Source: a bacterium
Lineage (GTDB): Bacteria > Patescibacteriota > Andersenbacteria > UBA10190 > CAIZMI01
NCBI GenBank assembly: GCA_030647555.1
Contig: JAUSJG010000013.1
Span: 12,086-76,085, forward strand
DNA: 64,000 nt
Direction of reading: 5' to 3'
A model generated the notes under the pieces. The model was given only the letters and a program-made list of their open reading frames with translations, was not told where the DNA came from and made no database searches. Positions 3,374 through 48,770 of this stretch are shown here, piece after piece. The stretch's first letter is position 1; every line of letters starts with the position of its first letter. The translations under genes and the position numbers were made by a program.

Positions 3374-3405
3374 GAACTGGTCGTTCTGAAAATAAAGTTA
3401 GCGAA

Positions 3406-3444: not shown

Positions 3445-3550
3445 TTGTCGGATGCACCATTGACTTTTGTCTGTTTTGGGGGTAGGTTGGACGTAAGAAG
3501 CAACCGAAAACTTCCTGAAAGGGTTGTGGCCGAAAGGTCTAGGTTGCTTT

Positions 3551-4852: not shown

Positions 4853-4878
4853 CCGCGTCATCGAGACGCGGTTTTTTT
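4853..4878 (+). terminator. Intrinsic terminator ccgcgtcatcgagacgcgg + T7
   Basis: Hairpin and T-run immediately after stop of 4255-4845. Confidence 0.55.
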
Positions 4879-4880
4879 AT

Positions 4881-4932
4881 TTTTCTCATCAGAGAAAAAT
4901 AATCCCCCATAGCTCATCAGCGCGCGCGGGTG
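4881..4932. repeat. Variable palindrome (ttttctcatcagagaaaa) + degenerate 34-bp CAT element (aatcccccatagctcatcag...)
   Basis: Same architecture as 7322-7374, 28296-28351, 38001-38056, 48569-48623. Confidence 0.55.
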
Positions 4933-5702: not shown

Positions 5703-5727
5703 ATTCGAGAAATTTGTACGCGCAATT

Positions 5728-5945: not shown

Positions 5946-5953
5946 ATTGAGGC

Positions 5954-6364: not shown

Positions 6365-6366
6365 TT

Positions 6367-6432
6367 TGTATCGACATATCGATACAAGTCACCGTGTTGG
6401 TTGATATTTTTATGTATCGACATATCGATACA
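6367..6432. promoter_or_regulatory. Two more copies of TGTATCGACATATCGATACA (6367-6386, 6413-6432) downstream of TrpR-like gene
   Basis: Exact palindromes seen directly. Confidence 0.6.
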
Positions 6433-6477
6433 TCATTGCGTGATGCGGTTGAGTGAATTTTTTTAAACTAAAACTTG

Positions 6478-6644: not shown

Positions 6645-7274
6645 GTGATGGGACATGCGAACGCGGGAACAGATTTTACGATTGATCAAGTCATGGCTAT
6701 TCGGGAGATGGAGAGAAAGTTAGCGCGACAAGGATTTCGCGGTGCTCGAAAAGAGGTTCAAGATGCTTTCGAAGTGTTGCATTACCGTATTAAGGCGTTG
6801 AAAAAACACCGCTTGGTGGATTGTTCTAAGGGGGCGTCTATCCCTGATGGATGTTTGATTCTTGAAGAAGATCAGTTACCGGGAAGAAAGAAAGACGAGA
6901 TGATCCTGAGTGTTCGTTTTATGGAGCTTTGGATTCCGGAAGCCAGGATGCCGGGAATATACAGCAGAGCCGCATTGCTTGAGGAGCTTCAACAAAATGA
7001 ATCAGCGGTACTTCCGTTGAGCGTTCTCGATCACGATCTTCTTTGGCAGCACGGGATTTTCTACGGGCTCATTCCCGATCAAGGTAGCATCTTATTCTGG
7101 GGTACGATCTTTCGCGATGTAAATGGGATTCCAACAGTAAAAGGGTTGTCTCGAAAGCGAGCGGACATTTATCTGCGAGATTTCCCCATCGACAGCTTGC
7201 GGAGTACTGTGCCACAGCGCGAATATGTTGCGCTTTATGTCAACGCTCCAATGATTGACACCGGTGTCTGGTAA
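6645..7274 (+). CDS. Hypothetical protein, FWGT-motif family (paralog of 20738-21304)
   Basis: Shared segment LL..I...LIP....(I/V)(L/F)FWGT..R...G with 20738 protein; atypical codon usage. Confidence 0.5.
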   Translation: MMGHANAGTDFTIDQVMAIREMERKLARQGFRGARKEVQDAFEVLHYRIKALKKHRLVDCSKGASIPDGCLILEEDQLPGRKKDEMILSVRFMELWIPEARMPGIYSRAALLEELQQNESAVLPLSVLDHDLLWQHGIFYGLIPDQGSILFWGTIFRDVNGIPTVKGLSRKRADIYLRDFPIDSLRSTVPQREYVALYVNAPMIDTGVW

Positions 7275-7295
7275 ATAGCGTACGCAGTTTTTCTG

Positions 7296-7322
7296 CTCCA
7301 CGGAATCCCGTGGAGTTTTTTT
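7296..7322 (+). terminator. Intrinsic terminator ctccacggaatcccgtggag + T7
   Basis: Hairpin and T-run after stop. Confidence 0.55.
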
Positions 7323-7374
7323 GTTTTCGCGCGCTCGCGAAAACAATCCCCCATAGTCTTGGTGAAGGGGGATG
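7322..7374. repeat. Variable palindrome gttttcgcgcgctcgcgaaaac + CAT-element variant aatcccccatagtcttggtgaagggggatg
   Basis: Architecture shared with four other sites. Confidence 0.55.
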
Positions 7375-7388
7375 ATTTATTTTTTTAA

Positions 7389-7427
7389 ATCAGTGACCGA
7401 CCCCGGCGTGCGGGGACGGTCCCTGAT
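7389..7427. repeat. Palindromic element family 2, identical to 3406-3444
   Basis: Exact repeat. Confidence 0.75.
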
Positions 7428-7473
7428 TTGTTCGCGTATTCCTATTTCATCAATCATCATTCATAATCACCTT

Positions 7474-8055
7474 ATGATCGCCTCTCTCACTGGCACAATT
7501 GAACACGTATCAATGGACTCTGTTGTTATGCAGGTGAATGGGATTGGTTATCGTGTTTATACTCTGGCTTCGGTTTTGAGTGTGCTGAAGGTTGGCGAGA
7601 AAATTACGATGAAAACATATTTAAGTGTACGGGAAAATGATTTATCGCTTTATGGGTTTCAGAATCCGCGTGAGCTGGCTTTCTTTAAATTGCTTTTGCA
7701 GGCGCCGGGGATTGGGCCCAAGACCGCCTTGAACGTGATGGCAATTGCAACGGTCGATACTTTGATTCGCGCTGTCGCTTCCGGTGATGTGACGCTTCTG
7801 ACAAAAGTTTCCGGAATCGGCAAAAAAACGGCGGAAAGAATTGTGGTTGAATTAAAAACAAAACTGGAAAAAGAACATCCGGAACTTTCAGGGAAGGGGC
7901 CGAGTGTTCACTCGGATGTTATATCGGCGCTTTCAAGTTTGGGCTACAGCCCAATTCAGGCGCGGGAAGTGGTGCGGCAGTTGCCGGAAGAATTGAAGGA
8001 TGCGGAAGCGGGCATTAGAGCGGCGTTGAAGATTTTGGGAAGCAATAAGAAATGA
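7474..8055 (+). CDS. ruvA: Holliday junction branch migration complex subunit RuvA
   Basis: MIASLTGTIEHV... OB fold, HhH motifs (GIGPKTA, GIGKKTAERI), C-terminal domain. Confidence 0.9.
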   Translation: MIASLTGTIEHVSMDSVVMQVNGIGYRVYTLASVLSVLKVGEKITMKTYLSVRENDLSLYGFQNPRELAFFKLLLQAPGIGPKTALNVMAIATVDTLIRAVASGDVTLLTKVSGIGKKTAERIVVELKTKLEKEHPELSGKGPSVHSDVISALSSLGYSPIQAREVVRQLPEELKDAEAGIRAALKILGSNKK

Positions 8056-8190
8056 ATTTGAAATTTGAAATTTTTAATTTGAAATCAATTTGAAAGGATT
8101 AAATTTGAAATATCTAAAACAGCGTTTTCAAATTAAAACATTTAGTTATTTCAAATTGATTAAAAATTTCAAATTTCAAATTAAAAATTG
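8056..8190. repeat. Long AT-rich hairpin (aatttgaaatttgaaatttttaatttgaaatcaatttgaaa ... inverted); near-identical copy at 36080-36212, partial at 54521-54555
   Basis: Inverted arms read directly; likely terminator/MITE after ruvA. Confidence 0.6.
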
Positions 8191-20400: not shown

Positions 20401-20409
20401 TATTAAGTC

Positions 20410-20540
20410 CAAAAATCCCAATGACCAAACCCCAATGTCCAACAAAAACCCAATTATCAAAATTCCAAAGTTGCGATTTTTTTTGGTTATTAAAATTTTT
20501 GAATTTTGTTGGGCATTGGTCATTGGGGTTTGGGATTTTG
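20410..20540. repeat. Long hairpin element (tcccaatgaccaaaccccaatgtccaacaaaa ... ttttgttgggcattggtcattggggtttggga); family copies 24997-25125, 32453-32605, 53893-54027, 57531-57660
   Basis: Inverted arms ~32 bp; same arm sequence after rpoC, ftsK, ychF, uvrC, uvrA. Confidence 0.65.
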
Positions 20541-20622
20541 AAACCTAAATATGAATAACCAAACAAAAATATCCAATAATGGCTAAAGTAAGCCTCAAAA
20601 GACTAACTTTCATATTATATTA

Positions 20623-21325: not shown

Positions 21326-21361
21326 ACGCCTCGTGCTTTGTTGCACGAGGCGTTTTTTTTA
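21326..21361 (+). terminator. Intrinsic terminator acgcctcgtgctttgttgcacgaggcgt + T9
   Basis: Hairpin and T-run. Confidence 0.6.
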
Positions 21362-21398
21362 TCTGGGACCGTCCCTGCAGTCAGGGTCGGTCACAGAT
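21361..21398. repeat. Palindromic element family 2 variant (atctgggaccgtccctgcagtcagggtcggtcacagat)
   Basis: Shares gaccgtccc/gggtcggtc arms. Confidence 0.55.
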
Positions 21399-21443
21399 AA
21401 AACATTAATTTGTGAACAGTAAATTTTGTGAAATTATTCATTG

Positions 21444-21472
21444 CCAAACGGCCTCTTTTTTGCTATAATTAC
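21444..21472 (+). promoter_or_regulatory. Promoter TTGCCA-17-TATAAT, 3 nt before ATG 21476 (leaderless-type)
   Basis: Hexamers read directly. Confidence 0.4.
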
Positions 21473-21475
21473 AAT

Positions 21476-21700
21476 ATGGAATTCAGACAATCGCTCTTTT
21501 GGGACACCGATCCCAAGAAAATTGATCCGCAAAAACACGCGCAATACATCATTGAGCGCGTGGCGGATTTTGGTAACGATAAAGAAGCGCGTTGGGTCTT
21601 GGATTTTTATGACAAACCGCTGCTTCAAAACATTATTTCTAAATCGCGCTGTTTAAGGCCGCGCACAAAAAAATTATGGACGCTTTTGGTCAACAGATAG
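21476..21700 (+). CDS. Small protein (MEFRQSLFWDTDPKKIDPQKH...), putative partner/antitoxin of the downstream AbiEii-family gene; overlaps it by 25 nt
   Basis: ORF directly after promoter; overlap suggests coupling. Confidence 0.4.
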   Translation: MEFRQSLFWDTDPKKIDPQKHAQYIIERVADFGNDKEARWVLDFYDKPLLQNIISKSRCLRPRTKKLWTLLVNR

Positions 21701-22347
21701 TTTGGCAATACCAAACACTGCCTGCTAACACAAAAAAAGCGTTAGATTTTTTGTCCGCGGAAAATTGGTTGGAAAAAACCGATTGGTATTTGGCAGGAGG
21801 CACAGCCTTGGCATTGCAGGCGGGGAATCGAAAATCTTTCGATTTAGATTTTTTTACTGTTCAAAAAGATTTTGATGGTAAAAAACTGCTTGCCAATTTT
21901 TTGGGTAATGATAATTGGAAGACAGATATTGAAGATACAAATACGATCTATGGGCAATTATTTGGGGCTAAAGTAAGTTTTATTGCTTACCCGTTTTTTA
22001 TCCCAAAGCAAAGGTTTATTCAACATGGTTCTGTGTGCGTGCTTGATAAGACTGACGTTGCGGTGATGAAAATAACGGCCATTTCTCAACGGGGCAGGAA
22101 GAGAGATTTTTTTGATTTATATTGGTGCGCGACAAACATCGAATCATTGGAAAACATCGTTAAACGGCTTAAAGAACAATATCCGTTTATTGCGCATAAT
22201 TATCACCACATTCTTAAAAGTCTAGTGTATTTTGACGATGCGGAAGGCGATCCCGAACCGGAGGTTTATTTTGATGCCACATGGGAAAAAGTTAAAGAAT
22301 ATTTTACAAAAGAAGTTCCGTCGATTGTCGACAAGATAGTGAATTAA
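21676..22347 (+). CDS. Nucleotidyltransferase AbiEii/AbiGii toxin-family protein
   Basis: WYLAGGTALALQAGNRKSFDLDFF motif typical of AbiEii NTases. Confidence 0.65.
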   Translation: MDAFGQQIVWQYQTLPANTKKALDFLSAENWLEKTDWYLAGGTALALQAGNRKSFDLDFFTVQKDFDGKKLLANFLGNDNWKTDIEDTNTIYGQLFGAKVSFIAYPFFIPKQRFIQHGSVCVLDKTDVAVMKITAISQRGRKRDFFDLYWCATNIESLENIVKRLKEQYPFIAHNYHHILKSLVYFDDAEGDPEPEVYFDATWEKVKEYFTKEVPSIVDKIVN

Positions 22348-24996: not shown

Positions 24997-25125
24997 TGGT
25001 TATTAAACCCCAAATCCCAATGACCAATGTCCAACAAAACCATAATTACTAAAATCCCAAAACGCGTATTTGGTCATTAGTATTTTGGAATTTTGTTGGA
25101 CATTGGGGTTTGGGATTTGGGGTTT
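24997..25125. repeat. cccaatgaccaa-family long hairpin after ftsK
   Basis: Arm sequence shared with 20410-20540. Confidence 0.6.
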
Positions 25126-25188
25126 AAAAGGCACTTGTGTCGGTGAAGGCTAGGAGAAAATCAATTAGTAATGCTAAAGTAAATCCAT

Positions 25189-26349: not shown

Positions 26350-28218
26350 ATGGCCAGCTTTACGCTTCTGGCACTCGTTGTTTCTGTGCTCGGTGTTTTG
26401 CCGCTTTTGGCGGCCAAACGCCTGCAAGCAGCTGGTGTAATGGCGTCGGTCGCGTTTGTTGCGATTCTGCCGATGCTCGCACTTGCTGTTCCATCGCTGG
26501 TTTGGCCTTGGTGGGGCATGCCAGGAATTCTGGTTGTCTTGCTTTGGGTGATTTGTCCGGTTATTGACATCCTTATCAGTAACAGTGACCAACCGGATGA
26601 ACCAATAAAGATTCGGACAGCACCGCTATACATGACGGCCGTGCTCGTTTCTGTGATGGTGCTCAGTGGTTTTCGCGGTTGCACCGCGTTTACGGCTGGC
26701 GAGTACGCCAACCTGATCGGTGACGTGGATGAAAAGGTTTGGAATCAAGATATCCAGCCGAAAGATCCTCGTCACATCAGGATGGCGTCATTGGAAAATG
26801 CAATTGCCCTGGCCGAACAACAGCTTGGCAAAGGCGGAGCCATCGGGAGCCAGTTTCAGTTGTTGAAAAGTGGAGCTACGGCGCAATTCGTCAACGGGAA
26901 GTTTGTGACGGTTGTGCCGTTGGACTATGCCAGTTTTTCGGCATGGAGTTCCTCAAAAGGCGTTCCCGGGTACGTTGTCGTTGACAACGAAGATCCGCGC
27001 GCCGAAGCTAGTCTGGTTATGTTGCCGGACGAAAAGAAGTTCGTCTACACCCCCAGTGCTTATTGGGGTTACAACCTCGAGCGGCACTTGTGGTGGAACG
27101 GCTTCGCGACGAAAGGATTGGACGATTTCACGTTGGAGATCGACGACTCTGGCAAACCCTGGTGGACGGTGACGGTTTTTGAACCGACCATTTACTGTTG
27201 GGGCGAAAAGATGACTGGTGTGGTTGCCGTTGATCCGGTCAGCGGTGTGACCGAATTCTATCCGGTCGGAAAGATTCCCGATTGGGTGGACAGTGCGATG
27301 CCACGCAAGTTTGCGAAGTCGTACGTTGATTTCCGCGGGAAGTATTCGCTCGGTTGGATCAACGCCGACATTTGGGGTCACAAGGACTTAACCAAGGCCG
27401 ATGGTTACCCGTTGTTAGTGTTTGGTTCAGATGGGGTGCCCTACTTTGTGGTCAGCGTCACGTCGGTAAATGACAAAGACGCGTCGCAAGTGGGTTTGTA
27501 TTACTTTAATACTCGCACTGGAAAGGCGACGTACTACAAGGCCAGCGGAAGTACCGAGTCGGCAGTCGTGAATGCCGTTAATAAGAACGAACAGGTGCAG
27601 TTTAAGCACCTGCACGGCAGTGTTCCGCAGATCTACAACATCTACGGGACGATGTGCTCGGTGGTGCCATTACTGAACGAGAGTCATCTCTTCCAAGGGG
27701 TGGCAATCGTGGATGTCGCGAACATCCAGGTGATGGGAATTGGCAAGGATCAATTTGAAGCCTTGCGGGCATTTCAGAAAGCGTTGCCCGTTTCCGGTCG
27801 GCAAGTGGCGCCGGAACTTTCTCGGAAAGTGGAAACGCTGGAAGGGAAAGTGTCGCGCGTTGCGGTGATTAACCAAAATGGCGACGCGACGTTCTACATG
27901 GTTCTGGAAAGCGTCCCGCATCTGTTCACTTGCGGTATCTCACTCTGTCCCGAAAAGTTGCCCGTTACGGAAGTAGGCGACACGGTACGGATTGAGTATT
28001 ACGGTTCTGGCGAACGGATTGAACCACTGCATGCCTTCGACAACACGTCGTTGAAAATCGAAGGAACAGACAGTGAAAAGGAGGTTCGCGAAGCTGGCGC
28101 GGATGTGCTGGACAAGGCCGCGGTTGTGCAAGAGAAGGCCACAACGCGGACCAAAGTCGGTGAACTCTCTGACGAGGAGGTTCAAACGATCTTGTCCAAA
28201 CGAAACGCGGGTAAGTAA
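26350..28218 (+). CDS. Large hypothetical membrane-anchored protein (3 N-terminal TM helices + ~500 aa extracytoplasmic domain); higher GC than neighbours
   Basis: Hydrophobic N-terminus; no recognised domain. Confidence 0.5.
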   Translation: MASFTLLALVVSVLGVLPLLAAKRLQAAGVMASVAFVAILPMLALAVPSLVWPWWGMPGILVVLLWVICPVIDILISNSDQPDEPIKIRTAPLYMTAVLVSVMVLSGFRGCTAFTAGEYANLIGDVDEKVWNQDIQPKDPRHIRMASLENAIALAEQQLGKGGAIGSQFQLLKSGATAQFVNGKFVTVVPLDYASFSAWSSSKGVPGYVVVDNEDPRAEASLVMLPDEKKFVYTPSAYWGYNLERHLWWNGFATKGLDDFTLEIDDSGKPWWTVTVFEPTIYCWGEKMTGVVAVDPVSGVTEFYPVGKIPDWVDSAMPRKFAKSYVDFRGKYSLGWINADIWGHKDLTKADGYPLLVFGSDGVPYFVVSVTSVNDKDASQVGLYYFNTRTGKATYYKASGSTESAVVNAVNKNEQVQFKHLHGSVPQIYNIYGTMCSVVPLLNESHLFQGVAIVDVANIQVMGIGKDQFEALRAFQKALPVSGRQVAPELSRKVETLEGKVSRVAVINQNGDATFYMVLESVPHLFTCGISLCPEKLPVTEVGDTVRIEYYGSGERIEPLHAFDNTSLKIEGTDSEKEVREAGADVLDKAAVVQEKATTRTKVGELSDEEVQTILSKRNAGK

Positions 28219-28259
28219 GTCTGCGTCGCGGTAAGTTCAGTTCTTTCGAGAGTAGTCAG

Positions 28260-28295
28260 TCCCCGGGTCCAGCAATGGATCCCGGGGATTTTTTT
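28260..28295 (+). terminator. Intrinsic terminator tccccgggtccagcaatggatcccgggga + T7
   Basis: Hairpin and T-run. Confidence 0.6.
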
Positions 28296-28351
28296 GTTGC
28301 CCATCGCAATGGACAACAATCCCCCATAGCTCATCAGAGCGACGGGGGATG
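28296..28351. repeat. Variable palindrome gttgcccatcgcaatggacaac + canonical 34-bp CAT element aatcccccatagctcatcagagcgacgggggatg
   Basis: CAT element identical to 38023-38056. Confidence 0.65.
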
Positions 28352-28519: not shown

Positions 28520-28924
28520 TTACCGTGCATATGTGGAGATAATTTTTTTGTTCAGTTTTCTTTCCATTTCAAAAAAGGGGGCGTAGTTGTGATAAATCTT
28601 GAACGCATTTAGTTTAAATTTTAATAAATCCCGCCTGTCGCCATAGAGCAGGATTGGATTTTTGCTTACTTGGAACGACAAAAGCGGATTGGCTTTGTTT
28701 AAAATTGTTAGATCGACTTCTTTGTTGAAGATTGCGGAAAGTTCATTGATTAAATCAACATGTTCCTTAAAAAAAACGTCTTTCATGCCTAAAACGGCAA
28801 TGTCTAAATCGCTGTCCTTTCTTTGTTTTCCAGTCGCAAAAGAACCAAAAACAACCACCAATTTCAGTTGAAATTTTTTGGTGAGTTCAGTGATCTTCGT
28901 TTTTTGATCTTGGGTCGTTTCCAT
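28520..28924 (-). CDS. Nucleotidyltransferase (MNT-type), no adjacent HEPN partner
   Basis: FGSFATGKQRKDSDLDIAV motif. Confidence 0.65.
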   Translation of the reverse strand: METTQDQKTKITELTKKFQLKLVVVFGSFATGKQRKDSDLDIAVLGMKDVFFKEHVDLINELSAIFNKEVDLTILNKANPLLSFQVSKNPILLYGDRRDLLKFKLNAFKIYHNYAPFFEMERKLNKKIISTYAR

Positions 28925-30134: not shown

Positions 30135-30315
30135 AGGGCTTGATAATTAATAAACGCCTTATCTTATGTCCAATCCATCTCCAAATACAACCGCTTCTCA
30201 ATCAAAAATCTTTCAACGTATGTCAAATACGTCTCAAGATTTTGTTCAATCAAAGACAGTTGTCTTTGAAGCGCATTGAACATAATCTTAAAGCGTTTAT
30301 TAATTACCAAGCCCT
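30135..30315. mobile_element. MITE-like element copy B (181 bp) with 23-bp TIRs agggcttgataattaataaacgc / gcgtttattaattaccaagccct, inserted 4 nt after recA stop
   Basis: TIRs and ~85% identity to copy A (1-154) and reverse copy C (60882-61061). Confidence 0.7.
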
Positions 30316-30317
30316 AA

Positions 30318-30523
30318 TGGACAAACGGAGGACTTATAAAAAAATTGATCTGGAAGGGATTGATTTGCCCGGACCACGGCGCGAGACGGTGATGTTGCCT
30401 AAATCAAACACGTGGAAGTATTGGGTGGGTGCGTTTGTGTTGCTCGGATTTGTATCGGCGATGGTGCTGTTGAATTGGAACGCGGTGAGCCAAGCGGCGT
30501 TTGTGCGGGCATTGGTAAATTAG
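30318..30523 (+). CDS. Small hypothetical membrane protein (68 aa, one TM)
   Basis: ATG immediately after MITE end; hydrophobic segment. Confidence 0.3.
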
Positions 30524-32337: not shown

Positions 32338-32452
32338 AACTCGCTAGAATGTAACACGAGGGGCTAAATTGTGCAAGCACGAGGGGGCTTGGATATTGTG
32401 ACTTGGGGATTTATTCGGAATTAAAGCTTGATTAGTGGTAACTCAACCTTTT

Positions 32453-32605
32453 AAATCCCAATGACCAAACCCCAATGTCCAACAAAACTTCAAAATCTTA
32501 ATGACCAAAATGACACTTCTTTGGGATTTTAGAAATTAGAATTTTGTTGCCTGCCGGCCGAAGCTTTAGCGAAGGCTGGGTCATTGGGATTTGGAGTTTG
32601 GAGTT
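32453..32605. repeat. cccaatgaccaa-family long hairpin with nested ~30-bp insertion (ctgccggccgaagctttagcgaaggctggg)
   Basis: Arm sequence shared; aagctttagcgaag also at 28366-28379. Confidence 0.55.
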
Positions 32606-33838: not shown

Positions 33839-34240
33839 TTGCGATATTATTGGCGCATGACGGAAGAAAATTTAGTGATTTATTGGCAAGAAGGGGCGCG
33901 AGAAGCGTGGAAAACCGCGGAGGCTTTAATGGCATCAAAACGTTATGTGCATACTCTTTTCTTTTGCCATTTAACACTAGAAAAGGCGTTAAAAGCTTGT
34001 TATGTCGATGTGAACAAGGTTCCCTCTCCACCAGTACATGATTTAAACTGGTTGGCGGAAGAGGCAAAAGTTAGTGTGAGTGATGATGATAAAAATATAC
34101 TTGCGGAAATATCAAAATTTAATATCGCCGGGCGTTATGAAGATTATAAATTGCGTTTGCACGAAGAGGCTACTTTTGAATACGTCAGTCGCTGGGTGGG
34201 TGAAACAAAAAGGCTGATGGATGTTTTATTGGCCGAATAA
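33839..34240 (+). CDS. HEPN domain protein (toxin component)
   Basis: HEPN-like helices with AGRYEDY R-x-H type motif region; overlaps MNT gene by 20 nt. Confidence 0.55.
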   Translation: MRYYWRMTEENLVIYWQEGAREAWKTAEALMASKRYVHTLFFCHLTLEKALKACYVDVNKVPSPPVHDLNWLAEEAKVSVSDDDKNILAEISKFNIAGRYEDYKLRLHEEATFEYVSRWVGETKRLMDVLLAE

Positions 34241-34583
34241 TATGATTATAGAAAATAAACCCGACCAAGAAGCGATTCAAATCGCACAAAGGTTTGGTGA
34301 TTTGGTAAAAAAACAGGGCGTTGATGTGCGAAAGGTCTTGTTGTTTGGATCTCGCGCGCGCGGTGGCTGGAAACCATGGAGCGATGTCGATATTTGCGTT
34401 ATCTCGCCTCAATTTGGCAAGAATGTTTCGGAAGAAATGGGCATGTTGTTGCGTCTTACCGTACAATTAAAATCGCCATTTCCCGTTGAGCCGATTCCTT
34501 TCGGCTTGGATGATCTTGAAGACAAATTCAGCACGCTTGCGAACGAAATTCGTAAGTATGGCGTTTCTGTAGAAATTAAATAA
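34221..34583 (+). CDS. Nucleotidyltransferase (MNT-type antitoxin)
   Basis: LFGSRARGGWKPWSDVDICV motif. Confidence 0.7.
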   Translation: MFYWPNNMIIENKPDQEAIQIAQRFGDLVKKQGVDVRKVLLFGSRARGGWKPWSDVDICVISPQFGKNVSEEMGMLLRLTVQLKSPFPVEPIPFGLDDLEDKFSTLANEIRKYGVSVEIK

Positions 34584-34614
34584 AAATCACGCTAATAAAA
34601 TTGATTATGTAAAG

Positions 34615-34877
34615 GTAACCGCTCACCGGTTAAGGAGAAATTTGAGTCGTCGCTCTCACTTCCGATGTGGTGCCGACCTGTCCCCCATAGCCTTGGCAAC
34701 GGGGGAGGCACTTCATCGGAAGTGGTGTGGGTTAGGGTTTGATAATCGTAGTAACGTTACGCGAACCATAACCACTTCCAAGGAAGCCATGCCTGTCCTC
34801 CGTAGCCTTGTGCGAAGGGGGAAATGGCCACCTTGGAAGTGATCACGACAGCAATCCATCGACCGGTGAGCGGTTAC
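34615..34877. mobile_element. Structured TIR-bounded element, copy 2 (263 bp), inverted relative to copies 1/3 and carrying two nested ~30-bp mini-palindromes in its hairpin loops
   Basis: TIRs gtaaccgctcaccggttaagg / ccggtgagcggttac; internal cacttccgatg...catcggaagtg hairpin. Confidence 0.65.
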
Positions 34878-34923
34878 CGCAAGCCACTTTGGCAAAAGCA
34901 TAATTTAAGCGTATAAAATCCAT

Positions 34924-36048
34924 ATGGCACAAAATAAACTCAAAGGTTTTGTAGCAGAATTATTGGCTAGTGTGGATGTAAAAATTGACGGTGATCGACC
35001 ATGGGATATACGGGTGCATGACGAGCGTCTTTATCGACGCGTTGCGTCGTCGGGAAATTTGGGGCTTGGAGAAGCATATATGGATGGTTGGTGGGACTGC
35101 GAGGCCATAGATGAACTAATCAATCGTATTTTGCGCGGTGATTTGGCAAAAAAGGTTCGTCAGGATATCGGCATGGATTTGGTTATTTATACTTTATTGC
35201 ATTTTAACCCGGCCGGTCATAAAAATAAGGCTTTTGAAATTGCCGAAAAACACTACAATACCGGGAATGATTTGTTTCAGGCGATGCTTGATAAACGCAT
35301 GGTCTATACCTGTGGTTATTGGCGCGACGCCCAAACCTTAGACGAAGCGCAAGAAGCAAAACTGGATTTGGTTTGCCGAAAGATTGGTTTGAAACAAGGA
35401 ATGCGCGTCTTGGATATCGGTGGCGGGTGGGGAAGTTTTGCAAAGTTTGCCGCGGAAAAATATGGGGCGTCGGTTGTAAACGTTACGGTTTCTAAAGAAC
35501 AGGTCGAATTGGCCAACAAATTATGTAAAGGCCTAACCGTCGAAAATCGTTTGCAGGATTATCGTGATGTGAATGAAAAGTTTGATGCAATTGTTTCGTT
35601 GGGAATGTTTGAACACGTCGGTCCGCGTTACTACAAAGATTATTTCGCGGTGGTGGAGCGGTGTCTTAAAGATGATGGACTGTTCTTATTACACACGATT
35701 GGTCGCAATGAAACGAAAGGGCAACCTGACGCCTGGATCAGTAAATATATTTTTCCAAATTCTGCATTGCCTTCCATGCACCAAATTACTGGTGCTGTTG
35801 AAAGGCATTTTATTGTAGAAGATTGGCACAACTTTAGTGCTGATTACGACAAAACACTGATGGCCTGGTACAAAAATTTTGAACAACATTGGCCGGAACT
35901 CAAGACCAAATACAGCGAAAGATTTTATCGCATGTGGCGTTATTACCTGTTATCTTGTGCCGGTGGTTTCCGCGCGCGGGGGATACAGTTGTGGCAGATA
36001 GTTTTGTCAAAAAAAGGTGTGGTGGGGGGTTATGAATCAGTTCGATAA
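34924..36048 (+). CDS. cfa: Cyclopropane-fatty-acyl-phospholipid synthase family SAM-dependent methyltransferase
   Basis: VLDIGGGWGSFAKFAAEKYGASVVNVTVS SAM-binding motif, CFA synthase-like length. Confidence 0.8.
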   Translation: MAQNKLKGFVAELLASVDVKIDGDRPWDIRVHDERLYRRVASSGNLGLGEAYMDGWWDCEAIDELINRILRGDLAKKVRQDIGMDLVIYTLLHFNPAGHKNKAFEIAEKHYNTGNDLFQAMLDKRMVYTCGYWRDAQTLDEAQEAKLDLVCRKIGLKQGMRVLDIGGGWGSFAKFAAEKYGASVVNVTVSKEQVELANKLCKGLTVENRLQDYRDVNEKFDAIVSLGMFEHVGPRYYKDYFAVVERCLKDDGLFLLHTIGRNETKGQPDAWISKYIFPNSALPSMHQITGAVERHFIVEDWHNFSADYDKTLMAWYKNFEQHWPELKTKYSERFYRMWRYYLLSCAGGFRARGIQLWQIVLSKKGVVGGYESVR

Positions 36049-36079
36049 AATAGACTGTTATTGATATATTAAGATAATT

Positions 36080-36212
36080 AATTTGAAATTTGAAATTTTT
36101 AATTTGAAATCAATTTGAAAGATATAAATTTGAAATACCGAAAACAGCGTTTTCAAATTATGATATTAAATTATTTCAAATTGATTAAAAATTTCAAATT
36201 TCAAATTAAAAA
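36080..36212. repeat. Long AT-rich hairpin, near-identical to 8056-8190
   Basis: Direct alignment. Confidence 0.65.
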
Positions 36213-36297
36213 TTGGGTTGTCTTTATCTGACAACAAAGTTGTATTACATAAAATGGCTAATATGAGCCATAAATAGAGCGGGTAAATACCCTCCTA

Positions 36298-36621: not shown

Positions 36622-37935
36622 ATGAAGACCTCCATCACTGCCACGTTGTCCGCTAAGGCCACCACCGCTCGCGCCGAGTTTTTGAAGATTATGAAAACGG
36701 CCGATCAGATCGGCTGGCAGGAGTGCTACGACGCCATTCAGGGCGTCGTGGGTGCCCTCGACGCCGACACCCAGGCCGAACTCCAGCAGTTTTTGGTCGG
36801 TATCAAGCCGGAGACGGCGCGGATGCGGATTGATAACGCCGCCCGGGTTTTGGAAGACCTTGGCGAATATTCGTTAGCGTTCGCGTTGAAAGGTGAGGTA
36901 GTCCTCACCAACGTGCAGGCCATCGCAATGTTTGAACCGTTCGTGGCCGGCAACAACGCTCTGCCCGAATGGATTCGGGGGGCACTGAACGTCCGCTTGG
37001 GTGCTGTCAAGGCGATGATCGAGAGGGCAAAGTTGCCTCCCGTACCGCCGAAGTCGGCTGTGCCCGCCGATCCGTTGCCCGGACTGCGGAAGCAGTTCGA
37101 GCAGATGCTGGATCGTATGGAGCACGGTCACTTCTGCAACGGCGACTTTCATGTCGCCGAGACCAAGTTGACCGTCGCGCAGCGCGATGAACTGGCGGAC
37201 CTGATCAAAAAGATCCGCGACGAGATCGAGCCGTGCTACTTGCGAGCCCGCACGAATGCGGGCGAAATGCTCGAGACCGTCGGCCATGATCGTGCGGCCG
37301 AAGCGCTCTATGACGACGAGGCAGATCCCGGAGTGTTGCATGACGCGTTGAGGGCGCGGAATGTGCACGGCTGGGTGAAAGGGCTGATCAATCATCGGAT
37401 TTATCAGCTAGAAAAGCTGGCGCGTGCCCGCGAGCAGGTCGCCAGATTGACCGAAACCGACGTCGCGGTGGCGAAGGTGGCCGAACTGGTCGGCCGTGTC
37501 ATCAAGATCGGCGATCAGGCGGCGGAATTCTCGGTTATGGGACCGACGCTGCTTAAGAAGGCCGAGGAGATTCTCGAGGAGGCCCAGCGCACGGAAGTGC
37601 ACTACGGTTTACTCGAGGGACTCATTGCCGACCAGGGCGGTGAGAAGAGTTTCGTCTCGCGGATGCTTCGCGACGTCGAGGCGATGGCCATGGTAGTCGA
37701 CAAGGCGGTCGAGAAGACCAAGGCCGCGGCGTTCCACCGCGAGTTACTCCGACCGGCGCGCGAAGCGGTCGAGGCGATGCGGACGGAGTTCGGTGAGGCC
37801 AATCAGACCGAGCCGGAACCGGTGGTACAGAAGGCCGAACCGGTTAAGCAGAATGGGAAGAAGAAGTTTCACCCTAATCTGCTGGCGAATCACGTTGATT
37901 CGCCACGGCATTCGCGCCATGGAGTCGCGCGCTGA
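36622..37935 (+). CDS. Hypothetical alpha-helical protein, markedly GC-rich (~60%) relative to window
   Basis: ORF with RBS aaaggacc; GCC/GAG/CTC-rich codons. Confidence 0.55.
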   Translation: MKTSITATLSAKATTARAEFLKIMKTADQIGWQECYDAIQGVVGALDADTQAELQQFLVGIKPETARMRIDNAARVLEDLGEYSLAFALKGEVVLTNVQAIAMFEPFVAGNNALPEWIRGALNVRLGAVKAMIERAKLPPVPPKSAVPADPLPGLRKQFEQMLDRMEHGHFCNGDFHVAETKLTVAQRDELADLIKKIRDEIEPCYLRARTNAGEMLETVGHDRAAEALYDDEADPGVLHDALRARNVHGWVKGLINHRIYQLEKLARAREQVARLTETDVAVAKVAELVGRVIKIGDQAAEFSVMGPTLLKKAEEILEEAQRTEVHYGLLEGLIADQGGEKSFVSRMLRDVEAMAMVVDKAVEKTKAAAFHRELLRPAREAVEAMRTEFGEANQTEPEPVVQKAEPVKQNGKKKFHPNLLANHVDSPRHSRHGVAR

Positions 37936-37964
37936 TCGTCAGTGCGCCAAGTTTATTCGTTCAG

Positions 37965-38000
37965 CCGTTGAATCTCACCCGAGGTTCAACGGTTTTTTTT
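37965..38000 (+). terminator. Intrinsic terminator ccgttgaatctcacccgaggttcaacgg + T8
   Basis: Hairpin and T-run. Confidence 0.6.
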
Positions 38001-38056
38001 GATTTTCTTCGCGAAGAAAATCAATCCCCCATAGCTCATCAGAGCGACGGGGGATG
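38001..38056. repeat. Variable palindrome gattttcttcgcgaagaaaatc + canonical 34-bp CAT element
   Basis: Identical CAT element to 28318-28351. Confidence 0.65.
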
Positions 38057-38592: not shown

Positions 38593-38600
38593 AAAGTTTT

Positions 38601-38639
38601 ATCAGGGACCGTCCCCGGCGTGCGGGCACGGTCCCAGAT
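38601..38639. repeat. Palindromic element family 2 (atcagggaccgtccccggcgtgcgggcacggtcccagat)
   Basis: Related to 3406-3444. Confidence 0.65.
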
Positions 38640-38778
38640 AAAACCTTGATTTTGTGTTGCTTTAGTGCTATCTTTAATTAGTTGCTAGAAATGTTTTTTG
38701 GTATTAGAAAAGGAGACGATCTATAAATCAAAGGAGTGCCTGAAGTGATGGAATGTTTCAGAAGTAATTTCAAAAGGG

Positions 38779-46970: not shown

Positions 46971-47012
46971 CCGATCACGGAACGGAGCAACCTTGCTCCG
47001 TTCCGTGATCGG
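46971..47012. repeat. Palindromic element family 1 (ccgatcacggaacggagcaa-cc-ttgctccgttccgtgatcgg); supplies the last ~12 codons and stop of the HepT gene
   Basis: Overlap of palindrome with 3' end of ORF 46975-47439. Confidence 0.65.
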
Positions 47013-47439
47013 TGTTGGTCGCCACTACCTTGCTGATTATTTGCACGAATTGTTCAAGATCTCCCAAATTGTTTTGGAGGTTTTCGTATACTATTTCCGG
47101 ATCAACGTCCAAATAATCGTGGACCAAGACATTGCGGAAACTTTTCGCTTTTGTCAGTTTGACAGCGAGTTCTTCGGACAAGATTCCCGAGTTTGCCAAT
47201 ATTTCAAATTCACTATTTTTTTCGCCGGGCTTTTGTAATTTGTTTTCAATTATTAAATAACGCGCGATATCAACAACGGTCTCCAGTCCTGTTTGGAACA
47301 GGCGTTCCACCGAAAGTTCGTTGCGTTCATCGGCAAAGTATTCGTTTTTCGACAGCGCTTGGTATTTTTTCAGCTTTTCCAGTGTTTCTTCCAGCGAGGA
47401 TAATTTATTGACGACTATTTCTTTAGTTATTTCAGTCAT
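46975..47439 (-). CDS. HepT-like HEPN (DUF86) toxin; C-terminus read through a palindromic element
   Basis: RNVLVHDYLDVDPEIVY Rx4HxY motif. Confidence 0.7.
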   Translation of the reverse strand: MTEITKEIVVNKLSSLEETLEKLKKYQALSKNEYFADERNELSVERLFQTGLETVVDIARYLIIENKLQKPGEKNSEFEILANSGILSEELAVKLTKAKSFRNVLVHDYLDVDPEIVYENLQNNLGDLEQFVQIISKVVATNTDHGTEQGCSVP

Positions 47440-47443
47440 TATA

Positions 47444-47890
47444 TTATGATGCGGTTAAATTGTTTAAGAAAGATTGGTTGTAAAGTTTCAGAAAATCTTT
47501 TTGGTCGTCGTATTCACGTAAAACCGCCATCTCGAATTTTACGCGTTCTCCATGTTCTTTTTCCGCTAGAACAATACCTTCACTGATCACCGCCATCCGC
47601 AAAGCGAGCGGGGCTTGGTTGAGTACGGAAATATCCAGCGCTTCTGTTGGTACATCAAAAATTTTTCCAATTATTTCGTGCGCGATTAAACGCGCGTCAA
47701 ACTGTGTCTGTTTTGAAGCATTGGGATCCAAAAATAAGGCGATGTCGATATCGCTTTCCTCATGTATGTCGCCGGAAACGGCGGAACCGAAAATATAGGC
47801 AAACAAAATCGGAAGGCCGGCCATTTCTTTTTCGGCCAGTTTGTTTAAATCGTCTGTGACAGTAATTTTCTTCGCGCCAAAGCGTTTCAT
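47444..47890 (-). CDS. Nucleotidyltransferase (MNT-type antitoxin)
   Basis: FGSAVSGDIHEESDIDIAL motif; 4-nt gap to HepT. Confidence 0.75.
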   Translation of the reverse strand: MKRFGAKKITVTDDLNKLAEKEMAGLPILFAYIFGSAVSGDIHEESDIDIALFLDPNASKQTQFDARLIAHEIIGKIFDVPTEALDISVLNQAPLALRMAVISEGIVLAEKEHGERVKFEMAVLREYDDQKDFLKLYNQSFLNNLTAS

Positions 47891-47918: not shown

Positions 47919-47962
47919 TTGACAAGGAATCAAAAAGGGGGCAAAATAGGGTGTTCTTTAGC
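47919..47962 (+). promoter_or_regulatory. Promoter-leader module TTGACA-17-CAAAAT + agggtgttctttagc
   Basis: Same spacing and motif as other module copies. Confidence 0.4.
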
Positions 47963-48031
47963 TTACCCCACACCCCGTGCAAGCGTGCCGGAAGGGGACT
48001 AGTGGGAACACTTTTTCGGGAGGAATTTGAG

Positions 48032-48481
48032 ATGTTGGGTTCTTTGCAAACTTTATCTATTATTCTCTGTGTTGTTTCCATTCTTTGTTGTCCCTATCTA
48101 TTTCCTGTTTTGTGTCGGAATCTTCACTATTTTTGGAACAGGTGGAAGATGGGGCGACCGCGACCAATTGTTTACATGTGTCGTCCAAATGGCAGTAAAC
48201 GAATTGGATTCGTTCTGCGACGTGATTTCCAGAAGGCGGAGAAAAAATTCTGGAAAGAAAAGCGTCGTCAAGATGTGTGGCACGGAAAAGGATGGACTGG
48301 AGAATGGGACGCGGTAAGGATTCCTGTTGCACCGGTGTTCGTTTTTGATGCAGATTTGCCTACGTATAATTTGCTGAAGAAATACTGCTATTTGCAGGAG
48401 GCGGTGTTTCTTGTGCCGTTGGATAGCTATGGTCCCTCATTCGATGAGTGTTGGCTACACTTTCGGGGGGTCGTGAAATAG
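48032..48481 (+). CDS. Hypothetical protein (cassette-type; GWTGE motif)
   Basis: ORF between module and terminator+palindromes. Confidence 0.4.
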   Translation: MLGSLQTLSIILCVVSILCCPYLFPVLCRNLHYFWNRWKMGRPRPIVYMCRPNGSKRIGFVLRRDFQKAEKKFWKEKRRQDVWHGKGWTGEWDAVRIPVAPVFVFDADLPTYNLLKKYCYLQEAVFLVPLDSYGPSFDECWLHFRGVVK

Positions 48482-48540
48482 TTTTGTACGGAATCTGCCA
48501 GATGAGTAATTGGCACGTACTTCTTGAACGGTCTTAGCAT

Positions 48541-48770
48541 CGCGACCACCTCGGTCGCGATTTTTTTATTGCCCATCGGAATGGGCAATAATCCCCCTTA
48601 GCTCATCAGAGCGACGGGGGATGTTGCCTTGTTTTGTATCGATTATATCGATACAAACGGAAGATTGCTTACACGAAATCGGTGACCGACCCTGACCGCA
48701 GGGACGGTCCCCGATTAACTTCTCAAATCCTTATACTATATACCAAATACCATATACAAATCTAAATACA
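48541..48770. repeat. Repeat nest: terminator repeat (48541-48567), palindrome attgcccatcggaatgggcaat + CAT element (48569-48623), TGTATCGATTATATCGATACA (48635-48655), family-2 palindrome (48678-48715), gtatat-family fragment (48721-48770)
   Basis: Five different repeat families juxtaposed within 230 bp. Confidence 0.65.

What the first reader, a model, noticed from the sequence alone, without database searches (positions are those of the whole stretch)
28296..28351. Invariant 34-bp hairpin element always preceded by a different 22-bp perfect palindrome
The element aatcccccatagctcatcagagcgacgggggatg has a 7-bp stem atccccc/gggggat and an 18-nt loop. It occurs at 28318, 38023 and 48590, which are identical to near-identical, and as variants at 4901 and 7345.

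In every case it directly follows a different 18-22-bp perfect palindrome, and that palindrome directly follows an intrinsic terminator. The five preceding palindromes are ttttctcatcagagaaaa, gttttcgcgcgctcgcgaaaac, gttgcccatcgcaatggacaac, gattttcttcgcgaagaaaatc and attgcccatcggaatgggcaat.

A variable palindrome beside a constant hairpin resembles a bipartite recombination or insertion site (attC-like, or the foot of a REP/BIME-type element) more than a regulatory motif.
Basis: seen in the sequence. Interest (0 to 1): 0.55.

Follow-up and report, generated by a model that had tools for sequence, protein, structure and literature searches.

The report
Repeated hairpin stacked behind gene terminators
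In this candidate-phyla (Patescibacteria) genome, a two-hairpin DNA unit sits directly behind the transcription terminators of at least five genes; its constant hairpin belongs to a much wider, undescribed family of small hairpin repeats, and it behaves like a REP-type mobile repeat rather than an integron-type recombination site.

Summary
Five plus-strand sites (4901, 7345, 28318, 38023, 48590) each carry an intrinsic terminator with a T7-8 run, then a 24-nt hairpin of different sequence, then AATCCCCC...GGGGGATG, with no spacer bases.

New findings:
- The variable hairpin covaries at 8 of 10 pairs. It has Watson-Crick pairs only.
- The constant hairpin is an imperfect palindrome with an AUA/GAC internal loop.
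- Two further relatives lie at 34681 and 34796, with no palindrome and no terminator.
- The orthologous terminators of three sites in related genomes lack the unit, and about 94 kb of related genomes holds no copy.
- An identical 33-mer is a two-way terminator in a distant MAG. A longer-stemmed variant terminates a tRNA gene in a metagenome contig.
- The 7345-type loop matches a near-invariant 30-nt hairpin (CYTG-TCCNCC-GTAG-CCTTGGCGAAGGGGGA). It occurs in at least 120 metagenome loci (GC 33-70%) and six viral contigs. It is absent from Rfam and linked to no gene family.

Best reading (about 0.45): a REP-like, non-autonomous hairpin repeat added at terminator T-tracts, acting as an extra two-way terminator or insulator. 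The attC reading fails its defining features. The copying enzyme and the cause of the perfect variable palindrome remain unknown, and the source genome could not be retrieved.

The parts
4853..4878 (+). Site A, hairpin 1: intrinsic terminator of gene 4255-4845 (CCGCGTC-ATCGA-GACGCGG plus T7)
4878..4901 (+). Site A, hairpin 2: T-ATTTTTCTC-ATCA-GAGAAAAAT-A. It shares the 10-mer CTCATCAGAG with the tip of hairpin 3
4902..4932 (+). Site A, hairpin 3: decayed copy (ATCCCCCATAGCTCATCAGcgcgcgcgggtg) with its 3' arm lost
7295..7322 (+). Site B, hairpin 1: terminator of gene 6645-7274 (GCTCCACGG-AATC-CCGTGGAG plus T7)
7322..7345 (+). Site B, hairpin 2: T-GTTTTCGCG-CGCT-CGCGAAAAC-A
7346..7374 (+). Site B, hairpin 3 of 'type 2': ATCCCCC-ATAGTCTTGGTGAA-GGGGGAT-G. 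It matches the widespread metagenome consensus at 23 of 26 positions
28258..28295 (+). Site C, hairpin 1: terminator of the conserved gene 26350-28218. It is orthologous to the terminator in L009, with the loop CAGCAATG conserved
28295..28318 (+). Site C, hairpin 2: T-GTTGcCCAT-CGCA-ATGGaCAAC-A, with one C-A mismatch (G-T on the minus strand)
28319..28351 (+). Site C, hairpin 3 of 'type 1': ATCCCCC-ATA-GCTC-ATCA-GAGC-GAC-GGGGGAT-G
37963..38000 (+). Site D, hairpin 1: terminator of gene 36622-37935 (14-bp stem plus T8)
38000..38023 (+). Site D, hairpin 2: T-GATTTTCTT-CGCG-AAGAAAATC-A
38024..38056 (+). Site D, hairpin 3 of type 1, identical to site C
48539..48567 (+). Site E, hairpin 1: terminator of gene 47951-48481 (ATCGCGACC-ACCTC-GGTCGCGAT plus T7)
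48567..48590 (+). Site E, hairpin 2: T-ATTGCCCAT-CGGA-ATGGGCAAT-A. It is related to the site C palindrome, with a compensated outer pair
48591..48623 (+). Site E, hairpin 3 of type 1, with one change (A to T in the internal loop)
34681..34706 (+). Extra type-2 hairpin, TCCCCCATAGCCTTGGCAACGGGGGA, preceded by CCTG as in the metagenome consensus. It has no terminator or palindrome and caps one arm of a 265-nt structure
34796..34822 (+). Extra diverged type-2 hairpin, TCCTCCGTAGCCTTGTGCGAAGGGGGA. It caps the other arm of the same structure
   Evidence: the pattern fits

Best explanation
The 34-mer is the local, nearly identical subfamily ('type 1') of a large family of short imperfect-palindrome hairpins. 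The shared architecture is a C5/G5 foot, a 3x3 non-Watson-Crick internal loop (R-U-A opposite G-A-M), a short G-C helix and a small apical loop or helix.

The family behaves as a REP-like, non-autonomous repeat that spreads within and between genomes. In this Patescibacteria lineage, a 56-58-nt unit made of a variable perfect hairpin plus the constant hairpin was added exactly at the 3' end of the T-tract of terminators that already existed.

Shown:
- the anatomy of the unit;
- its absence at three orthologous terminators, and from all related DNA that was sampled;
- identical or near-identical copies in unrelated genomes, where they act as terminators;
- membership of a widespread family that is not linked to any gene.

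Inferred:
- Copies are made through a single-stranded DNA hairpin recognised in trans, by an enzyme of the Y1/HUH kind (RAYT or IS200/IS605 type) or something equivalent.
- A hairpin followed by a T-tract is the preferred landing place.
- Once in place, the unit works as a second, two-way terminator or insulator. The constant hairpin has an A-rich 5' flank and a T-rich 3' flank, as in L001.
- The variable palindrome is the zipper formed by the extended T-tract of the first terminator and the A-tract of the second.

Hairpin 2 against hairpin 3:
- Hairpin 2 has 8 of 10 pairs changed on both sides and 49 of 50 cells Watson-Crick, with no G-T. Hairpin 3 does not vary.
- The hairpin 2 left arms are T-rich (24 of 45 bases, counted from the sequences). 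They continue the T-run, and the right arms are A-rich.

The unit is a gain:
- L009 carries a 75%-identical ortholog of gene 26350-28218. It keeps the same terminator and T7 but has no unit.
- L002 and L008 carry orthologs of 4255-4845 and 6645-7274. Each has a plain terminator and no unit.
- L007 has nothing of the kind upstream of ruvA.
- Nine related loci, about 94 kb in all, hold no hairpin of this kind, against seven in the 64-kb window.
- One copy, at 4901, is decayed.

Spread between genomes:
- An identical 33-mer occurs in L001, whose UvrA is only about 50% identical to the window's. There it is flanked by A7 and T8 between convergent genes.
- L107 and L108 hold a variant with the same foot and internal loop and a longer apical helix, followed by T6, directly after a tRNA gene.

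The wider family:
- Positions left free in the search pattern are nearly invariant. The loci range from GC 33% to 70%.
- No gene family recurs next to the hairpin, and its orientation shows no bias relative to flanking ORFs.
- There is no Rfam family.

Resemblance to HUH substrates:
- The IS608-type subterminal hairpin, GCCCCTAGCTTTAGCTATGGGG, was read from an H. pylori plasmid. Its reverse-complement arm CCCCATAGCT equals the 5' arm of hairpin 3.
- REPs are defined as 30-40-nt imperfect palindromes whose stem mismatch is needed by TnpA-REP (PMC3333891).

Position:
- The unit lies 3' of a canonical terminator, so most sense transcripts should end before reaching it. This argues against a sense 3'-UTR RNA role.
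Against: - No transposase or recombinase is in the 64-kb window or enriched next to about 130 family members.
- Only 5-7 copies are visible, because the source genome could not be retrieved.
- The (A/G)TAG lies inside the hairpin, not 5' of its foot as in REPs. There are no inverted pairs and no target-site duplication.
- If the 56-nt unit were copied as a whole and recently, hairpin 2 should be as conserved as hairpin 3. It is not. A T-tract/A-tract zipper does not require exact complementarity.
- Only 3 of 131 type-2 copies have a T-rich 3' flank. Termination is therefore not the general role of the wider family.
- Near-invariance of a 30-nt sequence across GC 33-70% is unusual for selfish REPs, which are normally species-specific.
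- The orthologous comparisons are at 35-75% protein identity. An old gain followed by selection cannot be told apart from a recent insertion.
Confidence: 0.45

Rival explanations
1. The constant hairpin is a functional structured element that binds a conserved trans-acting factor. It could act as RNA or as single-stranded DNA. Its internal loop (RUA/GAM) and foot are kept by selection, and the neighbouring variable hairpin is kept only as a structure. The copies would then be old and maintained by selection, not recently copied.
For: - The primary sequence of the type-2 form is conserved across phyla, including at positions the search left free.
- The non-Watson-Crick internal loop is kept while the apical helices differ (GCTC-ATCA-GAGC, GCTCCAGC-TGC-GCTGGAGC, GC-CUUG-GC).
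- Hairpin 3 is invariant while hairpin 2 covaries.
- Four copies lie in the 5' UTRs of paralogous WD40 genes in L120, and two sit inside a very stable 265-nt structure.
- G-T wobble pairs occur on one strand only.
Against: - In the window, the five units lie 3' of strong terminators, where little sense RNA is expected.
- One copy, at 4901, has decayed.
- Close relatives lack the element altogether.
- The exact type-1 loop was found in only 1 of 185,579 species genomes and in no metagenome record.
- The element is not linked to any gene family and shows no orientation bias.
- There is no Rfam family.
Confidence: 0.2
2. The unit is an ordinary tandem or two-way terminator that arose in place. 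The constant hairpin with its A-rich and T-rich flanks would be a back-up or antisense terminator. Gene conversion or repeated local duplication would have made the copies alike, and nothing would be mobile.
For: - In L001, L107/L108 and L051, members of the family are flanked by A- and T-tracts exactly where terminators belong.
- In the window, the 3' flanks of hairpin 3 are T-rich (for example GATTTATTTTTTT at 7375 and GTTTCTTC at 38057) and the 5' flanks are A-rich.
- Two of the five sites lie between convergent genes.
Against: - Sites 10-40 kb apart carry 34/34-identical hairpins beside unrelated sequences, which needs a copying process.
- An identical 33-mer in an organism with only 50% UvrA identity cannot have arisen in place.
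- The U-tracts after hairpin 3 are weak at the two convergent sites.
- Only 3 of 131 type-2 relatives have T-rich flanks.
Confidence: 0.2
3. The unit is a bipartite site-specific recombination site, attC-like or Xer/dif-like, that marks the ends of acquired gene cassettes. A tyrosine or serine recombinase elsewhere in the genome would act on it.
For: - Four of the five upstream genes have no Pfam or NCBIfam match.
- The UvrB-RuvA interval holds extra genes compared with relatives.
- Synteny breaks just after the terminator at site C.
- The hairpins would fold as single-stranded DNA.
Against: - There is no RYYYAAC/GTTRRRY core, and the unit is two separate hairpins rather than one bulged attC hairpin.
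- The sites are dispersed among rpoB/C, recA, ruvA, ftsK and other housekeeping genes, not in an array.
- The window holds no integrase or recombinase.
- Gene 26350-28218 is conserved across Patescibacteria.
- The orthologs of 4255-4845 and 6645-7274 are present in L002 without the unit, so the genes and the unit do not travel together.
- No matching half-site lies upstream of the genes.
Confidence: 0.05

Closest known systems
REP / BIME elements and their RAYT (TnpA-REP) transposases (E. coli, Pseudomonas; GTAG-tagged REP superfamily)
   Same: - It is a short (about 30-34 nt) imperfect palindrome with obligatory unpaired bases.
- It is intergenic and mostly downstream of genes.
- It is multicopy, and gained or lost between related genomes.
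- It is clustered with other hairpin repeats.
- It contains a (G/A)TAG.
- Published REPs likewise sit between unidirectional and convergent ORFs (PMC3733652; PMC3333891).
   Different: - The RTAG is inside the hairpin, as part of the internal loop, and not unpaired 5' of the foot.
- There are no REP/iREP inverted pairs.
- It is partnered with a sequence-variable perfect hairpin.
- It is placed exactly at a terminator's T-tract.
- The type-2 form is nearly invariant across very different genomes, whereas REPs are usually species- or genus-specific.
- No RAYT has been seen.
Subterminal imperfect palindromes of IS200/IS605-family elements (IS608) and their MITE-like derivatives (PATEs)
   Same: - It has a C-rich/G-rich foot, an irregularity next to TAGC and a small loop.
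- The reverse-complement arm of the IS608-type hairpin (CCCCATAGCT) is identical to the 5' arm of hairpin 3.
- There is an A-rich tetranucleotide 5' of the foot, where IS608 has its guide sequence AAAG.
- All copies share one orientation.
   Different: - There is only one such hairpin per site, not a left-end/right-end pair.
- There is no tnpA or tnpB nearby.
- No defined cleavage tetranucleotide is known.
- The 10-nt identity may be chance.
Intrinsic (Rho-independent) and bidirectional terminators, including terminators built from repeated sequences (for example paired DNA-uptake sequences in Neisseria; PMC1852404, seen only in the list)
   Same: - It is a G+C-rich hairpin with T-rich 3' and A-rich 5' flanks.
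- In L001 and L107 it stands exactly where a terminator is needed.
- In the window it is stacked behind another terminator.
   Different: - A plain terminator needs no conserved loop or internal loop.
- The U-tracts after hairpin 3 in the window are weak to moderate.
- Most type-2 relatives have no T-tract.
Integron attC sites
   Same: - It follows the 3' end of genes that are often of unknown function.
- Structure is more conserved than sequence in part of the unit (hairpin 2).
- It would fold as single-stranded DNA.
   Different: - There are no R''/L''/L'/R' boxes and no GTTRRRY core.
- It is two hairpins instead of one.
- There is no array and no integrase.
- The upstream genes are not cassettes.

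Membership tests
Integron attC | Conserved core sites: R'' (RYYYAAC) at one end and R' (GTTRRRY) at the other, pairing as the outer part of one long hairpin | tested here: not met
   The unit starts with GTTGCCC, GTTTTCG, GATTTTC, ATTGCCC or ATTTTTC and ends with GGGGGATG. None fits RYYYAAC...GTTRRRY. The fold is two independent hairpins.
Integron attC | Occurs in arrays of promoterless cassettes next to an intI integrase with attI and Pc (or in attC clusters) | tested here: not met
   The five sites are spread over 44 kb among rpoB/C, ruvA, recA, ftsK, uvrA/C and other housekeeping genes. No integrase was found. At least one upstream gene has its own sigma-70-type promoter. Only 64 kb could be examined.
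Integron attC | Recombination of the folded bottom strand, with extrahelical bases that set the polarity | not testable with these tools
   This needs recombination assays.
REP / BIME | A 30-40-nt imperfect palindrome whose stem mismatch is required by TnpA-REP (PMC3333891) | tested here: met
   Hairpin 3 is 32-34 nt, with a 7-bp foot, a 3x3 internal loop (ATA/GAC) and a 4-bp helix. Whether the mismatch is functionally required is untested.
REP / BIME | Conserved unpaired GTAG (or CGTC) tetranucleotide at one end, 5' of the hairpin foot (PMC3333891, PMC3733652) | tested here: not met
   ATAG/GTAG lies inside the hairpin, after the 5' arm. The four bases 5' of the foot vary (CAAC, AATC, CAAT, AAAC, AAAT). 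In the metagenome family, the bases 5' of the foot are CYTG.
REP / BIME | Many copies per genome, mostly intergenic and downstream of genes | tested here: inconclusive
   Seven copies were found in 64 kb, all intergenic. Five of them are immediately 3' of genes. The genome-wide count could not be made, because the source genome was not retrievable.
REP / BIME | REP and inverted REP paired through a linker (BIME), or REPIN doublets | tested here: not met
   All copies are on the plus strand and none has an inverted partner. The partner hairpin (hairpin 2) is unrelated in sequence.
REP / BIME | A RAYT (tnpA-REP) gene in the genome, flanked by REPs | not testable with these tools
   None is in the 64-kb window. 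The rest of the genome was not available.
IS200/IS605-derived miniature element (PATE) | Two similar subterminal hairpins (left and right ends) in direct orientation, with cleavage sites set by guide tetranucleotides | tested here: not met
   Each site has only one hairpin of the conserved type. Hairpin 2 differs in sequence at every site.
IS200/IS605-derived miniature element (PATE) | Insertion 3' of a fixed short target sequence, with no target duplication | tested here: inconclusive
   All five units start right after T7-8, and no duplication is seen. Because a terminator is also present, the target cannot be separated from the context.
Intrinsic terminator | G+C-rich hairpin followed at once by a U-tract | tested here: met
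   Hairpin 1 meets this at all five sites. Hairpin 3 meets it only weakly in the window, with 4-6 T in the next 8 bases. It meets it fully in L001 (T8) and L107 (T6).
Any Rfam 15 RNA family | A score at or above the family's gathering threshold | tested here: not met
   Only a tRNA passes in the window. Nothing was found at 34560-34940. In 20 metagenome loci carrying the hairpin, only tRNAs and a 6S RNA were found elsewhere.

The most novel reading that the evidence does not exclude
The hairpin family would be the recognition element of an undescribed single-strand DNA mobility system. That system would home to the 3' edge of a terminator's T-tract. It would build a new perfect palindrome at each insertion by fold-back or template-switch copying of flanking sequence. 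The variable palindrome would then be a footprint of the insertion chemistry, not a selected structure.

The near-invariant 30-nt metagenome hairpin (CYTG-TCCNCC-GTAG-CCTTGGCGAAGGGGGA) would be the same system's substrate, spread across phyla and phages.
Probability: 0.1. Interest if true: 0.85.

Novelty: new variant of a known kind. Interest (0 to 1): 0.5.

Why it matters
- Little is known about non-coding DNA in Patescibacteria. This window shows that one lineage has filled its intergenic spacers with several hairpin repeat families, while close relatives stay compact.
- The terminator-linked two-hairpin unit gives a clean case for asking how small palindromic repeats choose their landing sites.
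- It also allows a test of whether such repeats are co-opted as extra or two-way terminators in very small genomes.
- The constant hairpin led to a short hairpin that is nearly invariant across hundreds of unrelated environmental contigs and some viral ones. That hairpin is absent from Rfam and linked to no gene. If it is the substrate of a mobile system or the binding site of a conserved factor, it has so far been overlooked.

Tried and rejected
**Searches that led nowhere**
- Retrieval of the source genome failed. Exact-protein look-ups of two window proteins, and of the 100%-identical P0121, returned nothing. Genome-wide enumeration was therefore impossible.
- Exact-pattern scans for the type-1 loop gave one hit in 185,579 species genomes (L001). 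They gave none in JGI metagenomes and none in IMG/VR.
- blastn of the 34-mer against phages and plasmids found nothing. The type-2 consensus found nothing in plasmids.
- Rfam gave nothing, in either gathering or E-value mode.
- Literature searches by sequence and by pseudo-peptide found nothing.

**Readings considered and rejected**
- *attC:* see the membership test.
- *Diversity-generating retroelement target:* there is no repeat of 100 nt or more at the gene 3' ends.
- *Group IIC intron remnant:* such introns do target terminators, but there is no intron-like sequence and the unit is only 56 nt.
- *Hammerhead or box C/D motifs:* CUGAUGAG on the minus strand is simply the GCUC-UGAU-GAGC tip, and there is no GAAA core.
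- *tRNA D-arm mimic:* ARAGORN and Rfam are negative.
- *Promoter or operator for the downstream gene:* two sites face convergent genes, and nothing is conserved 3' of GGGGGATG.
- *Shared regulon promoter upstream of the genes:* only generic TTGACA-17-TATAAT promoters are present.
- *Paralogy of the upstream genes:* none.
- *Coding origin of the type-2 consensus:* variable positions fall on third codon positions of the frame PLRQGYGGQ, but the ORFs in that frame are mostly 10-100 aa.
- *General association of type-2 hairpins with an upstream palindrome:* 2.5% against 2.7% at random.
- *General association with T-tracts:* 3 of 131.
- *General association with one gene family or with transposases:* none.
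- *General association with gene orientation:* none.
- *Protelomerase (telRL) site:* one palindrome resembles it from memory, but five sites in 64 kb of a chromosome cannot be telomere sites.
Full report
**1. The observation**

The 34-mer AATCCCCCATAGCTCATCAGAGCGACGGGGGATG is at 28318 and 38023. A copy with one mismatch is at 48590. No match occurred in 100 shuffles. Its first 12 bases occur five times, all on the plus strand, at 4901, 7345, 28318, 38023 and 48590, against 0.3 expected.

Reading the five places and aligning them shows one fixed layout with no spacer bases:
- a G+C-rich hairpin;
- a run of 7-8 T;
- a 22-nt palindrome closed by the last T of the run and the first A of AATCCCCC;
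- the ATCCCCC...GGGGGAT hairpin followed by G.

The pattern T7-RWT-N16-AWYAAT finds exactly these five places. Each site folds as three tandem hairpins, as RNA (z -5 to -8) and as DNA.

- The '18-nt loop' holds a 4-bp helix, GCTC/GAGC.
- One palindrome (28296) has a C-A mismatch.
- The 4901 copy has lost its 3' arm.
- Two related hairpins, at 34681 and 34796, were missed.

**2. Context**

The window is a bacterial chromosome. It carries uvrB, ruvA, rpoB, rpoC, ftsK, recA, ssb, uvrC, uvrA and groEL, plus several HEPN/MNT toxin-antitoxin pairs. GC is about 45% and GC skew is uniformly positive.

RuvA relatives are Patescibacteria. A 100%-identical protein is labelled 'MAG ... Q7S57_03680 [bacterium]' on a 122,775-nt contig. 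The genome itself could not be fetched.

All five units follow plus-strand genes. Three are followed by another plus-strand gene and two (28318, 48590) by a convergent gene. Nothing is conserved 3' of GGGGGATG. The upstream genes are unrelated to each other. One of them (26350-28218) is conserved across Patescibacteria. No recombinase or transposase is in the window.

The canonical hairpin-plus-T7-8 terminators on the plus strand are largely those that carry the unit. One more, at 21326, is followed by a hairpin of another repeat family.

**3. The two hairpins behave differently**

On the five-copy alignment:
- The variable hairpin has 8 of 10 pairs changed on both sides and 49 of 50 cells Watson-Crick, with no G-T. 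It exceeds every shuffle and every slid control.
- The constant hairpin shows no covariation at all.

The left arms of the variable hairpin are T-rich (24 of 45 bases) and extend the terminator's T-tract. The right arms are A-rich and abut the constant hairpin. The palindromes at 28296 and 48568 are related, and their outer pair changed G-C to A-T. The palindrome at 4879 shares CTCATCAGAG with the tip of the constant hairpin. These palindromes occur nowhere else in the window.

**4. The unit is a gain of this lineage**

- *Site C:* L009 carries a 75%-identical ortholog of gene 26350-28218. It keeps the same terminator (loop CAGCAATG) and T7, and then continues with unrelated sequence.
- *Sites A and B:* L002 and L008 carry orthologs of 4255-4845 and 6645-7274. 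Each ends with a plain terminator.
- *UvrB-RuvA interval:* L003 and L006 have uvrB directly next to ruvA. L007 has nothing upstream of ruvA.
- *Overall:* nine related loci, about 94 kb in all, contain no hairpin of this kind, against seven in the window.

The window lineage has also acquired several other intergenic hairpin families that L002 and L006 lack.

**5. The same hairpin elsewhere**

The only hit in 185,579 species genomes is L001. There, an identical 33-mer lies between convergent genes as AAAAAAA-hairpin-TTTTTTTT, a two-way intrinsic terminator with no preceding palindrome. That organism's UvrA is only about 50% identical to the window's.

In L107 and L108, a tRNA gene is followed directly by TCCCCCGTCGCTCCAGCGCAGCTGGAGCTATGGGGGA-TTTTTT. 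This is the reverse complement of a hairpin with the same foot and internal loop and a longer apical helix.

The type-1 hairpin and the 28296 palindrome pair better on the minus strand, with G-T in place of A-C. The 7346 copy pairs better on the plus strand. Strand of action is therefore unresolved.

**6. A much larger family**

The loop of the 7345 copy, and the two hairpins at 34681 and 34796, fit TCCNCC-NTAG-YCTTG-N5-6-GGGGGA.

- The positions left free are nearly invariant: GCGAA inside the hairpin and CYTG upstream.
- The consensus is CYTG-TCCNCC-GTAG-CCTTGGCGAAGGGGGA.
- The loci range from GC 33% to 70%.
- Eight further copies lie in six IMG/VR contigs.
- The predicted fold is a 6-bp foot, then G-A / U-A / A-G, then two G-C pairs and a CUUG loop. 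This parallels AUA/GAC plus GCUC-AUCA-GAGC in type 1.

The family has no Rfam model and no plasmid hits. No paper was found by sequence.

It is not linked to any gene family, to gene orientation, to T-tracts (3 of 131) or to an upstream palindrome. Copies are sometimes nested in the loops of other hairpins or arrayed.

Variable positions coincide with third codon positions of one frame, but that frame is rarely open for long.

**7. Comparison with known kinds**

*REPs.* These are 30-40-nt imperfect palindromes with a conserved GTAG 5' of the foot, mostly paired as BIMEs. TnpA-REP needs both the GTAG and a stem mismatch (PMC3333891; PMC3733652). Here the imperfect palindrome, the intergenic multicopy habit and the gain and loss all fit. 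The position of the RTAG, the lack of inverted pairs and the cross-phylum invariance do not.

*IS608-type hairpin.* The sequence read from an H. pylori plasmid is GCCCCTAGCTTTAGCTATGGGG. It shares CCCCATAGCT, as a reverse complement, with hairpin 3. This is a lead towards Y1/HUH recognition, not a test.

*attC.* Its features (core sites, a single bulged hairpin, arrays, an integrase) are not met.

**8. Conclusion**

The most economical account is a REP-like, non-autonomous hairpin repeat. In this lineage it was added at the T-tract of existing terminators. With its A-rich and T-rich flanks it probably serves as an additional two-way terminator or insulator.

Two things remain open. The copying mechanism is unknown. 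So is the reason why the partner hairpin is a perfect palindrome of different sequence at each site. A footprint of insertion, palindrome 'correction' by template switching, and DNA-level structural selection all remain possible.

I put this explanation at about 0.45. A selected factor-binding element and an in-place terminator each stand at about 0.2, and a recombination site at about 0.05.

Noticed in passing
window 34614-34878 (+): A region of about 265 nt between an MNT gene and a CMAS-type methyltransferase gene has an exceptionally stable fold (-139 kcal/mol, z = -8). It has an 18-bp closing stem and two long arms, each capped by a type-2 hairpin. There is no Rfam match. It could be an undescribed ncRNA or a nested cluster of palindromic repeats.
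   Followed up: partly
metagenome loci L011-L130 and viral loci L131-L136: A near-invariant 30-nt hairpin, CYTG-TCCNCC-GTAG-CCTTGGCGAAGGGGGA, occurs in at least 120 unrelated metagenome contigs (GC 33-70%) and six IMG/VR contigs. It has no linked gene family, no orientation bias and no Rfam model. It is sometimes nested in other hairpins (gtcatcctgagcg...gcgaaggatc) or arrayed. In L120, four copies lie in the 5' UTRs of paralogous WD40 genes.
   Followed up: partly
window 5726-5946, 6366-6433 and 48633-48657: The palindrome TGTATCGATATATCGATACA occurs seven times. Six copies flank a Trp-repressor-like gene (5954-6364) and one lies 10 nt after the 34-mer at site E. It looks like an operator array for that regulator.
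   Followed up: no
window 3404-3448, 7387-7431, 21357-21400 (-), 38599-38643, 48676-48720, 59904-59948: A second hairpin repeat family, AAATCRG-tGACCGACCC...GGGACGGTCCC-CYGATTT, shows compensatory changes in its stems. It lies 40-90 nt after the unit at sites B and E, and directly after the T8 of the terminator at 21326.
   Followed up: partly
window 20404-20548, 25004-25127, 32452-32549, 57527-57653; also 8051-8190 and 36076-36215: These are long A+T-rich inverted repeats (AAATCCCAATGACCAAA... / ...TTTGGTCATTGGGATTT). There is also a 140-nt repeat present twice at 92% identity. One copy sits between ruvA and femAB, where relatives L002 and L007 have abutting genes, so it is an insertion. A similar family is present in relative L003.
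   Followed up: partly
window 3332-3375 and 46971-47012: Two perfect palindromes of 17-18 bp share the centre GGAGCAAnnTTGCTCC and have different outer arms. One lies upstream of a DUF3800 gene and the other at the end of a HepT gene.
   Followed up: no
window 2-96 and 30161-30255: A 95-nt direct repeat at 89% identity. The second copy lies within the ORF at 30140-30523.
   Followed up: no
L107 5192-5290: This stretch is a mosaic of family members: a tRNA gene, then a type-1-like hairpin plus T6, then a lone 3' arm fragment ACGGGGGATG fused to a type-2 hairpin. It suggests recombination between members of the hairpin family.
   Followed up: no
window 28520-28924, 33839-34583, 46975-47890, 21428-22347: The 64 kb holds a high density of HEPN/MNT (MntA/HepT) and AbiEii-type toxin-antitoxin modules. 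Two of them are next to the hairpin units.
   Followed up: no
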